Assembly: GCA_946495655.1 (NCBI GenBank)
Contig: CAMMDS010000002.1
Span: forward strand, 28,984 to 92,983
From: an uncultured Clostridium sp.
GTDB lineage: Bacteria > Bacillota > Clostridia > TANB77 > CAG-508
Length of the DNA stretch: 64,000 nt
Direction of reading: 5' to 3'
In this document: piece by piece, positions 59,404 to 59,429 of the stretch
Layout of the letters: each line of letters opens with the position of its first letter
Position numbering within the stretch: the stretch's first letter is position 1
Made by a program: the position numbers and the translations under genes
The notes under the pieces: generated by a model
Told to the model about the DNA's origin: nothing
Seen by the model: only the letters and a program-made list of their open reading frames with translations
The model's database searches: none

Positions 59404-59429
59404 CTCTCTCTCTCTCTCTCTCTCTCTCT
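59404..59429. repeat. (CT)13 dinucleotide microsatellite between the clpC stop and the pilin-RCC1 gene promoter region
   Basis: Perfect 26-nt CT tract in an otherwise AT-rich spacer. Confidence 0.9.

What the first reader, a model, noticed from the sequence alone, without database searches (positions are those of the whole stretch)
59404..59429. (CT)13 microsatellite upstream of the pilin-RCC1 gene, which sits directly downstream of clpC with no obvious terminator
A perfect 26-nt dinucleotide repeat is very unusual in this AT-rich genome. It lies between the clpC stop (59569) and the promoter-proximal repeat array of the pilin-RCC1 gene. Dinucleotide tracts undergo slipped-strand mispairing and can phase-vary promoter spacing or read-through. 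I could not find a convincing intrinsic terminator after clpC, so stress-operon read-through into the RCC1 gene is also possible.
Basis: partly seen in the sequence, partly recalled or inferred. Interest (0 to 1): 0.55.

Follow-up and report, generated by a model that had tools for sequence, protein, structure and literature searches.

The report
Slippery repeat inside pilin-leader ORF
The (CT)13 run is a real, fast-mutating repeat that lies inside a small, currently frame-shifted reading frame ending in a transcription terminator just upstream of a pilin-like surface-protein gene, so it may act as a random on/off switch in an uncultured gut Clostridium, though this is unproven.

Summary
The tract is real: (CT)13 at 59404-59429, which reads (AG)13 on the strand that carries clpC and the RCC1 gene. 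It is far beyond chance. It is also hypermutable. A near-identical metagenome strain differs from the window over ~10 kb only by two repeat units and two SNPs within 8 nt of the tract. Other samples carry 11 units or (AG)6A, and one assembly breaks inside the tract.

A strong hairpin plus U-run (59295-59345, -23.5 kcal/mol) lies between the tract and the RCC1 gene. That gene has its own promoter-like site, preceded by 11-bp repeats shared with the type IV pilus operon.

The tract is not a promoter spacer. It sits in a short ORF homologous at DNA level to a rare small-ORF family (TVGVV(RE)n...KRIDCLAKV...LLQNSLSFL) found directly upstream of pilin-like genes. In that family the two most conserved peptide blocks are encoded by the arms of the terminator hairpin. 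Only tract lengths divisible by three let the ORF run through the terminator, and every sampled allele is out of frame.

Best model (inferred): an SSR frame switch gates translation through the terminator. Main rival: a decaying relic with a neutral microsatellite.

The parts
59404..59429 (-). (AG)13 microsatellite, written (CT)13 on the + strand. In the family reading frame it encodes (Arg-Glu)n.
   Evidence: Length polymorphism.
59400..59504 (-). The small ORF as it stands with a 26-nt tract: 34 aa, MLNRAKIDIIRMEGKGKIKQTIEVVRERERERES, with stop TAG at 59400-59402. The codon boundary falls exactly at the start of the tract.
   Evidence: An ATG-initiated ORF of 25 or more codons reading into the tract occurs in 1.8% of flank shuffles.
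59279..59403 (-). A frame open for 42 codons from the first base after the tract, through the terminator hairpin, to TGA at 59279-59281. It joins the ATG at 59504 only when the tract length is divisible by 3 (n = 6, 9, 12, 15), giving a 75-aa ORF at n = 12.
   Evidence: P = 0.007 alone; 5e-5 jointly with the upstream ORF.
59430..59446 (-). Conserved left flank AAACCATTGAGGTTGTA, encoding ..TIEVV. It is homologous to AAACCGTTGGCGTTGTA (..TVGVV) of the small-ORF family.
59526..59554 (-). Promoter-like site TTGAAA-17-TAGAAT immediately after the clpC stop and 22 nt upstream of the small ORF's ATG.
   Evidence: 10 of 12 matches. This is a consensus match only.
59295..59345 (-). Intrinsic-terminator-like hairpin (core stem 59302-59338) followed by a U-run at 59297-59301. 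The arms GGATAGACT / ATAGCCTGTCC are homologous to the arms embedded in the family ORFs.
   Evidence: -23.5 kcal/mol on the minus strand against -16.8 on the plus strand. Homology; equivalent family hairpins.
59396..59400 (-). Two substitutions unique to the window, at 59400 and 59396: TTAGAATTT in the window against TTACAATCT in all seven other samples that cover this flank. They lie 4 and 8 nt from the tract edge.
59246..59277 (-). 11-bp repeats AATATTACAA(A/G): two exact copies and one partial copy, 23 nt upstream of the RCC1 -35-like hexamer. The same array precedes the type IV pilus operon at 44535-44566.
59194..59223 (-). Promoter-like site TTGATA-18-AATAAT for the RCC1 gene.
   Evidence: This is a consensus match only.
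57845..59131 (-). Pilin-like RCC1 beta-propeller gene, 428 aa, with N-terminus MRKTIKREKGITLVALVITIIIIIILA. Some strains carry a 278-aa version.
59569..62019 (-). clpC, the last gene of the ctsR-mcsA-mcsB-clpC operon.
   Evidence: Pfam domains of the called genes.

Best explanation
The tract is the expanded, slippage-prone (AG)n segment of a small leader-like ORF. This ORF belongs to a rare family found directly upstream of pilin-like genes in a narrow clade of gut Clostridia. The unit reads: promoter-like site (59554-59526), ATG (59504), ..TIEVV, (AG)n encoding (Arg-Glu)n, an A-rich stretch, a terminator hairpin with U-run lying inside the ORF (59345-59295), and a stop codon (59279-59281). 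The pilin-like RCC1 gene follows. Shown here: the tract gains and loses units much faster than the surrounding DNA mutates. Shown here: only tract lengths divisible by three join the start codon to the frame that runs through the terminator. With 26, 22 or 13 nt, translation stops 3-10 codons after the tract, about 55 nt before the hairpin. Inferred: when the ORF is in frame, ribosomes following RNA polymerase cover the hairpin arms and suppress termination, so transcripts from clpC or the leader promoter continue into the RCC1 gene. When it is out of frame, the terminator forms and the RCC1 gene depends on its own promoter, which carries type IV pilus-type repeats. Under this model every genome sampled is in the terminating state, and n = 11 and n = 13 are each one slippage step from the read-through length n = 12.
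For: Hypermutability. The alleles are 13 units (window), 11 (ERZ2916642, ERZ2916450), (AG)6A (ERZ15233873, ERZ2916487, ERR6748682), and a contig break inside the tract (ERZ26858765). Over 53845-64000 the window and ERZ2916642 differ only by 2 units and 2 SNPs, at 4 and 8 nt from the tract.

ORF geometry. A 25-codon ATG-initiated ORF reads exactly into the tract, and a 42-codon open frame leaves it and crosses the hairpin. Joint probability in 20,000 dinucleotide-preserving shuffles is 5e-5.

Family. The ORF upstream of the closest RCC1-pilin homologue (L105) has homologues P0121 and P0122. A profile search of 1.84 billion representatives finds only 9 clusters. Members carry TVGVV(RE)n with n = 1, 3 or 4. 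The window is collinear with them at DNA level in three blocks: left flank plus AG tract, 5' arm, and 3' arm plus T5.

Terminator inside the ORF. The most conserved peptide blocks, KRIDCLAKV and LLQNSLSFL, are encoded by the two arms of a 24-bp hairpin followed by U5. In the window the 5' arm is conserved as nucleotides but is read in a different frame.

Dependence on read-through in relatives. In L108 and L105 no sigma-70-like site lies between the hairpin and the pilin-like gene. The only one found is upstream of the small ORF.

Same module elsewhere. In L108 the small ORF is followed 105 nt later by a pilin-like gene whose N-terminus is nearly the same as the window's.
Against: All three sampled alleles are out of frame. 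This is uninformative statistically: (2/3)^3 = 0.30.

The (AG)6A lineage looks locked out of frame.

The window copy lacks the family's central block and the KDKYA tail. BLASTP to P0129 finds nothing, and the hhalign hit (E 4.7e-7) rests largely on the low-complexity RE repeat.

The Shine-Dalgarno sequence before the ATG at 59504 is weak.

The RCC1 gene here has its own promoter-like site, so read-through may not matter.

Ribosome-dependent suppression of an intrinsic terminator needs tight transcription-translation coupling. From my own knowledge, this coupling is reported to be loose in Bacillus subtilis.

There are no expression data. Within-sample length heterogeneity is only suggested by one assembly break.
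Confidence: 0.45

Rival explanations
1. Neutral relic. The small ORF is a decaying copy of the family gene, internally shortened, frame-shifted and with a weak ribosome-binding site. Its AGAGAG motif expanded by slippage because nothing constrains it. The hairpin simply terminates clpC transcription, and the RCC1 gene is expressed only from its own promoter. Tract length has no phenotype.
For: Every sampled allele is out of frame, and the (AG)6A allele is fixed in three samples. The central family block and the KDKYA tail are missing. The RCC1 gene has its own promoter-like site with pilus-operon-type repeats. The region is absent from clpC loci of related species. No protein homologue is found for the repaired ORF with the RE repeat left out.
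Against: Both halves of the ORF remain open well beyond chance. This includes about 30 codons that are not in the ancestral frame. The hairpin kept full pairing after its loop was shortened, through base changes on both arms relative to L108 (read directly). Short intact members such as P0129 (71 aa) exist. A 13-unit perfect repeat is unique among about 820 kb examined.
Confidence: 0.35
2. Phase-variable small protein. The ORF encodes a functional basic protein of about 75 aa, for example a regulator or accessory factor of the pilin-like gene. The SSR turns the protein itself on and off, as in classical SSR-in-ORF contingency genes. Under this reading the overlap with the terminator is incidental.
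For: The family has a conserved C-terminal KDKYA and an N-terminal TVGVV block that hairpin constraints do not explain. Its dinucleotide tract, whose unit length is not divisible by 3, lies in the 5' part of the ORF.
Against: The window copy lacks KDKYA and the central block. Its 5' arm is read in a different frame from the family. No Pfam or other annotation exists for any member.
Confidence: 0.1
3. Nucleic-acid-level roles independent of translation. One option is that the (AG)n RNA acts as a single-stranded purine platform, for example for the distal face of Firmicute Hfq, in the clpC 3' tail. Another is that the (GA.TC)n duplex forms a triplex that absorbs supercoiling or blocks polymerases. 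A third is that the tract is the spacer of a cryptic promoter (TTGTAA or TTGAGG ... TAGAAT or TACAAT) for a ~95-nt RNA ending at the hairpin.
For: B. subtilis Hfq selects and binds (AG)n RNA on its distal face (PMC3287200). The tract is predicted to be unpaired. It is a perfect homopurine-homopyrimidine mirror repeat, as the sequence shows directly. It is flanked by -35-like and -10-like hexamers.
Against: No hfq gene is present in the window or in any fetched locus, so that part is untestable. The hexamer spacing is 26 nt at n = 13 and 22 nt at n = 11, which does not fit a functional promoter; the 13-nt allele gives only a weak TTGAGG-16-GACAAT (8 of 12), below the scanner's threshold. No Rfam family matches. 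None of these ideas explains the flanking open frames or the family homology.
Confidence: 0.07
4. The tract changes the spacing of the RCC1 promoter, or clpC transcription reads freely into the RCC1 gene because no terminator exists.
For: The tract is upstream of the RCC1 gene and varies in length.
Against: The tract lies 181 nt upstream of the -35-like hexamer. A hairpin terminator of -23.5 kcal/mol lies between them.
Confidence: 0.02

Closest known systems
SSR-in-ORF phase variation (contingency loci). Examples are the CT dinucleotide repeats in 5' coding regions of Helicobacter pylori outer-membrane protein genes and the CTCTT repeats in Neisseria opa genes. General features are taken from PMC11475388; the H. 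pylori example is from my own knowledge.
   Same: A hypermutable repeat whose unit length is not divisible by three sits near the 5' end of an ORF. Only some lengths keep the ORF in frame. The locus is tied to a surface or pilus-type protein. Length differs between closely related genomes.
   Different: The shifted ORF is a tiny leader-like ORF upstream of the surface-protein gene, not the surface-protein gene itself. The host is an uncultured gut Clostridium. In Clostridia the well-studied switches are invertible elements (my own knowledge). Reversible ON/OFF expression has not been shown here.
Leader-ORF attenuation, in which translation through an intrinsic terminator prevents termination. 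The E. coli pyrBI attenuator is the example. This comparison rests on my own knowledge and was not tested here.
   Same: A short ORF upstream of the regulated gene extends across a hairpin and U-run, with its stop codon just beyond. Ribosome occupancy is expected to compete with hairpin formation.
   Different: The proposed input is a stochastic reading-frame change at an SSR, not nucleotide-dependent pausing. Coupling and read-through are not demonstrated.
SSRs upstream of promoters of adhesin genes: N. meningitidis nadA TAAA(n) and H. influenzae hmw TCTTTCA(n) (PMC11475388).
   Same: A repeat tract upstream of an adhesin-type gene, with tract length polymorphism.
   Different: In those systems the tract alters promoter or regulator geometry. 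Here a terminator and 181 nt separate the tract from the promoter-like site, and the tract lies inside an ORF.
Hfq-binding (AG)n RNA motif of Bacillus subtilis (PMC3287200).
   Same: The RNA sequence is identical, (AG)n with n of 3 or more, and is predicted to be single-stranded.
   Different: No Hfq gene is visible in the available DNA, and there are no binding data. The motif there is short and is not an SSR.

Membership tests
SSR-mediated phase-variable (contingency) locus | A hypermutable simple sequence repeat whose unit length is not divisible by three | tested here: met
   A perfect dinucleotide repeat of 13 units. It is the only such tract in the 64 kb and in 756 kb of related loci.
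SSR-mediated phase-variable (contingency) locus | Tract length varies between and within populations much faster than point mutation | tested here: met
   Between samples the alleles are 13, 11 and (AG)6A. The tract and its flank are the only differences in ~10 kb. Within-sample variation is only suggested, by a contig break in ERZ26858765.
SSR-mediated phase-variable (contingency) locus | The tract lies in an ORF, so that length changes shift the frame, or lies within a promoter | tested here: inconclusive
   The tract lies in a small ORF, and only n = 0 mod 3 gives the 75-codon frame. Whether that ORF is translated is unknown. The tract is not inside the RCC1 promoter-like site.
SSR-mediated phase-variable (contingency) locus | Reversible ON/OFF or graded expression of a gene product | not testable with these tools
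   No expression data or read-level data are available.
Small-ORF family upstream of pilin-like genes (P0121-P0130) | N-terminal ..TVGVV block followed by (Arg-Glu)n encoded by an AG tract | tested here: met
   The window has ..TIEVV + (AG)13, with the DNA flank identical at 14 of 17 positions to L108 and L109. hhalign gives E 4.7e-7, but the match is largely low-complexity.
Small-ORF family upstream of pilin-like genes (P0121-P0130) | Inverted-repeat arms GGATAGACT... / ...ATAGSCTGTCC followed by TTTTTG inside the 3' part of the ORF | tested here: met
   The blocks are collinear, at 25/30 and 16/17 identity.
Small-ORF family upstream of pilin-like genes (P0121-P0130) | Located directly upstream of a pilin-like gene on the same strand | tested here: met
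   In the window it precedes the RCC1 gene. In L105 it precedes P0012, and in L108 it precedes a 441-aa pilin-like gene.
Small-ORF family upstream of pilin-like genes (P0121-P0130) | Uninterrupted ORF with the central block (LKTxVFSFNA...) and the C-terminal KDKYA | tested here: not met
   The ORF is frame-shifted in every sampled allele. The central block and KDKYA are absent, and BLASTP to P0129 gives no alignment. I therefore file it as a shortened, divergent relative at DNA level, not as a standard protein member.
Rho-independent (intrinsic) terminator | Stable hairpin followed directly by a U-run, downstream of a gene on the transcribed strand | tested here: met
   The hairpin has -23.5 kcal/mol, z = -8, and a U5 run, and it is more stable on the minus strand than on the plus strand. 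Actual termination is not testable here.
Leader-ORF attenuator (pyrBI type) | Leader ORF extends through the terminator, with its stop codon shortly after the U-run | tested here: met
   For in-frame lengths the stop lies 16 nt after the U-run in the window. In L105, L108 and L109 the stop lies about 25 nt after the U-run.
Leader-ORF attenuator (pyrBI type) | Translation of the leader changes termination efficiency | not testable with these tools
   This needs reporter or transcript 3'-end data.
Hfq distal-face (AG)n ligand | Single-stranded (AG)n with n of 3 or more, in an organism that encodes Hfq | tested here: inconclusive
   The tract is predicted to be unpaired. No hfq gene is found in the window or in any locus, and the whole genome is not available.

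The most novel reading that the evidence does not exclude
A clade of gut Clostridia controls pilin-like adhesin genes with a compact cis device. A short leader ORF has its two most conserved 'peptide' blocks encoded by the arms of an embedded intrinsic terminator. A dinucleotide SSR near its start, (AG)n or in one relative (AC)n, sets the reading frame at random. That frame decides whether ribosomes traverse and melt the terminator. This would be phase variation acting through translation-coupled attenuation. The window locus would be one such switch, currently caught in its OFF states (n = 11 and 13, either side of n = 12).
Probability: 0.3. Interest if true: 0.75.

Novelty: new variant of a known kind. 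Interest (0 to 1): 0.55.

Why it matters
SSR-driven contingency loci are textbook for small-genome Gram-negative pathogens. To my knowledge they are hardly documented in commensal gut Clostridia, where phase variation is mostly attributed to invertible DNA. Here a hypermutable tract is tied to a conserved leader-plus-terminator unit in front of pilin-like, repeat-variable surface proteins. If the frame of a leader ORF gates terminator read-through, two known principles (slipped-strand frame switching and leader-ORF attenuation) are combined in one device. It would also provide a sequence signature for finding phase-variable adhesins in uncultured gut bacteria. If the tract turns out to be neutral, the locus is still a clean natural example of a bacterial microsatellite whose mutation rate exceeds that of 10 kb of flanking DNA. 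It would also serve as a strain-tracking marker.

Tried and rejected
- **Rfam on the intergenic region.** Only sub-threshold miRNA-like hairpin hits.
- **Simple terminator scan.** Found nothing. Superseded by explicit folding.
- **Orthologous clpC loci of 80 species.** No tract and no RCC1 gene downstream. Most of the close relatives I read have a hairpin-and-T-run terminator within about 100 nt of the stop, so the unit is not a clpC feature.
- **Two scans of JGI metagenome contigs with flank patterns.** 0 hits.
- **Exact look-up of the 34-aa ORF.** Not on record.
- **Homologue search with the repaired window ORF (RE repeat left out).** No candidates. BLASTP against the L105 ORF and P0129 gave nothing significant. 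Homology therefore rests on DNA collinearity.
- **Upstream regions of more distant RCC1-pilin genes (L106, L107).** A divergent HTH gene, with no SSR and no hairpin.
- **Scan of viral contigs with the arm motif.** Eight chance hits in unrelated sequence.
- **hfq search in all held DNA.** None.
- **Promoter-spacer idea for the hexamers flanking the tract.** Rejected because the spacing is 26, 22 or about 10-16 nt in the observed alleles.
- **(AC)14 of L109.** I first read it as an independent SSR at the homologous site. I then found it lies between domain V and the predicted 3' end of a group II intron. It still follows a homologous ESLEAV start, as in P0126, so I report it only as a lead.
- **TRAP and CsrA binding.** Considered from memory and dropped, because the motif does not fit.

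Full report
**Anatomy.** All relevant genes are on the minus strand. The order is mcsA (63127-63735), mcsB (62099-63115), clpC (59569-62019), a 437-nt spacer, a pilin-like RCC1 gene (57845-59131) and ldh (56753-57709). The reported (CT)13 at 59404-59429 is exact. On the transcribed strand it reads (AG)13.

**More than chance.** A 12-nt CT run is expected 0.02 times in shuffles of the window. The next longest dinucleotide run in 64 kb is (AT)6. No dinucleotide run of 7 or more units exists in 756 kb of clpC loci from 80 related species.

**The terminator claim is wrong.** Folding the minus-strand RNA shows a 13+9-bp hairpin at 59295-59345 followed by UUUUU. Its energy is -23.5 kcal/mol, with z = -8.0 and 0 of 200 shuffles as stable. 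The plus-strand transcript of the same stretch reaches only -16.8 kcal/mol.
- The hairpin lies downstream of the tract and upstream of the RCC1 promoter-like site, TTGATA-18-AATAAT at 59223-59194.
- That site is preceded by tandem 11-bp units AATATTACAA(A/G).
- The same array sits at the same distance from the -35-like hexamer of the type IV pilus operon: 44535-44566, with TTGACT-16-TAAAAT at 44509-44482.
- The RCC1 gene therefore appears to have its own, pilus-linked promoter. The tract is 181 nt away from it, on the far side of a terminator.

**The tract is a mutational hot spot.** Exact-protein look-ups recovered the locus from independent metagenome assemblies.
- With identical ClpC and RCC1 proteins, ERZ2916642 and ERZ2916450 carry (AG)11.
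- In ERZ26858765 one contig ends inside the tract and the next begins at its last bases.
- A 98.7%-identical lineage (ERZ15233873, ERZ2916487, ERR6748682) carries (AG)6A with loss of GTT, together with a shorter RCC1 gene of 278 aa.
- Over 53845-64000 the window and ERZ2916642 differ only by the two repeat units and two substitutions, at 59400 and 59396. These lie 4 and 8 nt from the tract.
- Related species have neither the tract nor the RCC1 gene after clpC.

**The tract lies in an ORF.**
- An ATG at 59504 opens a 25-codon frame whose codon boundary coincides with the first base of the tract.
- From the first base after the tract, another frame is open for 42 codons. It runs through the hairpin and U-run to TGA at 59279-59281.
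- In 20,000 dinucleotide-preserving shuffles of the two flanks these features occur with P = 0.018 and P = 0.007, and jointly 5e-5. This test was chosen after seeing the data.
- The two frames join only when the tract length is divisible by three, giving 75 aa at n = 12.
- With 26, 22 or 13 nt, translation stops within 3-10 codons of the tract.
- A promoter-like TTGAAA-17-TAGAAT (59554-59526) lies just upstream of the ATG. The Shine-Dalgarno sequence is weak.

**A family context.**
- The closest RCC1-pilin homologue, P0012 (57% identity, same N-terminus), is preceded in L105 by an ORF that runs through a homologous hairpin. The 3' arm is read in the same frame, CTG TCC TTT TTG.
- That ORF has homologues P0121 and P0122. 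A profile search of 1.84 billion representative proteins finds only nine clusters.
- The alignment shows four conserved blocks separated by highly variable, indel-rich segments: N-terminal TVGVV(RE)n (n = 1, 3 or 4), KRIDCLAKV, LLQNSLSFLR and KDKYA.
- In the DNA, KRIDCLAK and LLQNSLSFL are encoded by AAAAGGATAGACTGTTTAGCAAAAG and CTTTTGCAAAATAGSCTGTCCTTTTTG. These are the two arms of a 24-bp hairpin followed by U5 (z = -5.6 and -4.1). The stop codon lies about 25 nt further on.
- In L108 the small ORF is followed 105 nt later by a pilin-like gene, MRKNAGITLITLVITIIIIIILSG....
- Neither L108 nor L105 shows a sigma-70-like site between the hairpin and the pilin-like gene. The only one found is upstream of the small ORF.

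**The window belongs to this family at DNA level.** It is collinear with the family in three blocks:
- AAACCATTGAGGTTGTA + (AG)n against AAACCGTTGGCGTTGTA + AG tract;
- TAATAAAATAATTAAAAAGGATAGACTATT against TAATGAAAAAAATAAAAGGATAGACTGTT;
- ATAGCCTGTCCTTTTTG against ATAGGCTGTCCTTTTTG.

At protein level only the N-terminal block scores (hhalign E 4.7e-7, largely the RE repeat). BLASTP finds nothing. The central block and KDKYA are missing, and the 5' arm is read in a different frame. What is conserved in the window is therefore the nucleic-acid architecture: start, AG tract, hairpin arms and U-run. The protein itself is not conserved. The shortened hairpin still pairs fully, with several positions changed on both arms relative to L108 (read directly).

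**Interpretation.** Two things are shown. The (AG)n tract is hypermutable. It sets the frame of a small ORF that overlaps an intrinsic terminator upstream of a pilin-like gene, inside a conserved module. The mechanism is inferred: in-frame translation through the hairpin would suppress termination and allow read-through into the pilin-like gene, and out-of-frame alleles would terminate. This resembles a pyrBI-type leader-ORF attenuator combined with an SSR frame switch. Both comparisons rest on established knowledge, and the SSR rules are as summarised in PMC11475388.

**Points against the model.**
- All sampled alleles are out of frame, although the chance expectation for this is 0.30.
- One lineage looks locked out of frame.
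- The window copy is degenerate as a protein.
- The RCC1 gene has its own promoter-like site.

The main rival is therefore a decaying relic with a neutral microsatellite (0.35, against 0.45 for the switch).

**Novelty and score.** Hypermutable SSRs and leader attenuators are both known. An SSR that gates a leader ORF with an embedded terminator in front of pilin-like genes of gut Clostridia would be a new variant. I score interest at 0.55.

Noticed in passing
window 59246-59277 and 44535-44566; weaker array at 14108-14164; L008 8936-8972: Tandem 11-bp units AATATTACAA(A/G) lie 23-25 nt upstream of -35-like hexamers of both the RCC1 pilin-like gene and the type IV pilus operon (PilM-like protein, prepilin peptidase, two T2SSE ATPases, T2SSF). 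The exact 10-mer occurs 6 times against 1.35 expected. A degenerate array in the opposite orientation precedes the mreB-like gene. A similar triple repeat occurs in a related species (L008). This looks like a shared regulator site spaced one helical turn apart.
   Followed up: partly
window 57857-58901; P0015 in L087, L102, L103 and L104: The RCC1 gene is itself copy-number polymorphic. It is 428 aa in the window lineage and 278 aa in a 98.7%-identical lineage, a loss of exactly 150 aa or one 450-bp super-unit of the 150-bp repeat array. Many assemblies break at this gene: several contigs begin 55-124 nt before ldh.
   Followed up: partly
window 59396 and 59400: The only two substitutions between the window and ERZ2916642 in ~10 kb lie 4 and 8 nt from the tract. 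All seven other samples that cover this flank share TTACAATCT, and the window alone has TTAGAATTT. In the long reading frame they change L-Q-S to L-E-F, which is closer to the family's (G/L)-E-L-K. In the n = 13 frame they create an immediate TAG stop. This could reflect SSR-associated mutagenesis or a short gene conversion from an unseen paralogue.
   Followed up: partly
L109 66-2083: A group II intron is inserted directly after (AG)8 in the homologous small ORF of another organism. The evidence is GTGCG at position 82, an RF02005 D1-D4 hit of 120.7 bits at 115-347, an RT ORF at 599-1585, domain V at 1857-1894, and a predicted 3' end at 2083 (RF00029 at 33.5 bits, below the gathering score of 40). 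Exon 2 begins AGAGAGAAGG. Joining 81 to 2084 restores an in-frame 131-aa family protein with VV(RE)4. P0123 starts inside the same intron 3' end, so other genomes probably carry it too. The intron's target appears to be the AG tract.
   Followed up: partly
L109 1933-1993: A second long dinucleotide repeat, (AC)14, follows a strong Shine-Dalgarno sequence and an ATG encoding MNNIILESLEAV(HT)n. Its left flank GCCTTGAGGCTGTA resembles the flank of the AG tract, and P0126 has the same ESLEAVHT N-terminus. The tract is one unit out of frame with the downstream family ORF. It lies between intron domain V and the predicted intron 3' end, so its status (alternative first exon or intron insert) is unresolved.
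   Followed up: partly
window 44680-44725: A G+C-rich hairpin followed by a T-run (GGTAGGGAATCTCACGCTTTCGTGAGGGCGCTGCCAAAATTTTTTT) precedes the 11-bp repeats and promoter-like site of the pilus operon. This is the same terminator, repeats, promoter order as upstream of the RCC1 gene.
   Followed up: no
L106 2155-2370 and L107 2164-2379: More distant pilin-like RCC1 genes (55-60% identity, ~650 aa, with an extra N-terminal domain) are preceded by a divergently transcribed 71-aa HTH (XRE-type) gene instead of the small leader ORF. The pilin-like adhesin family therefore appears to use at least two different upstream control modules.
   Followed up: no
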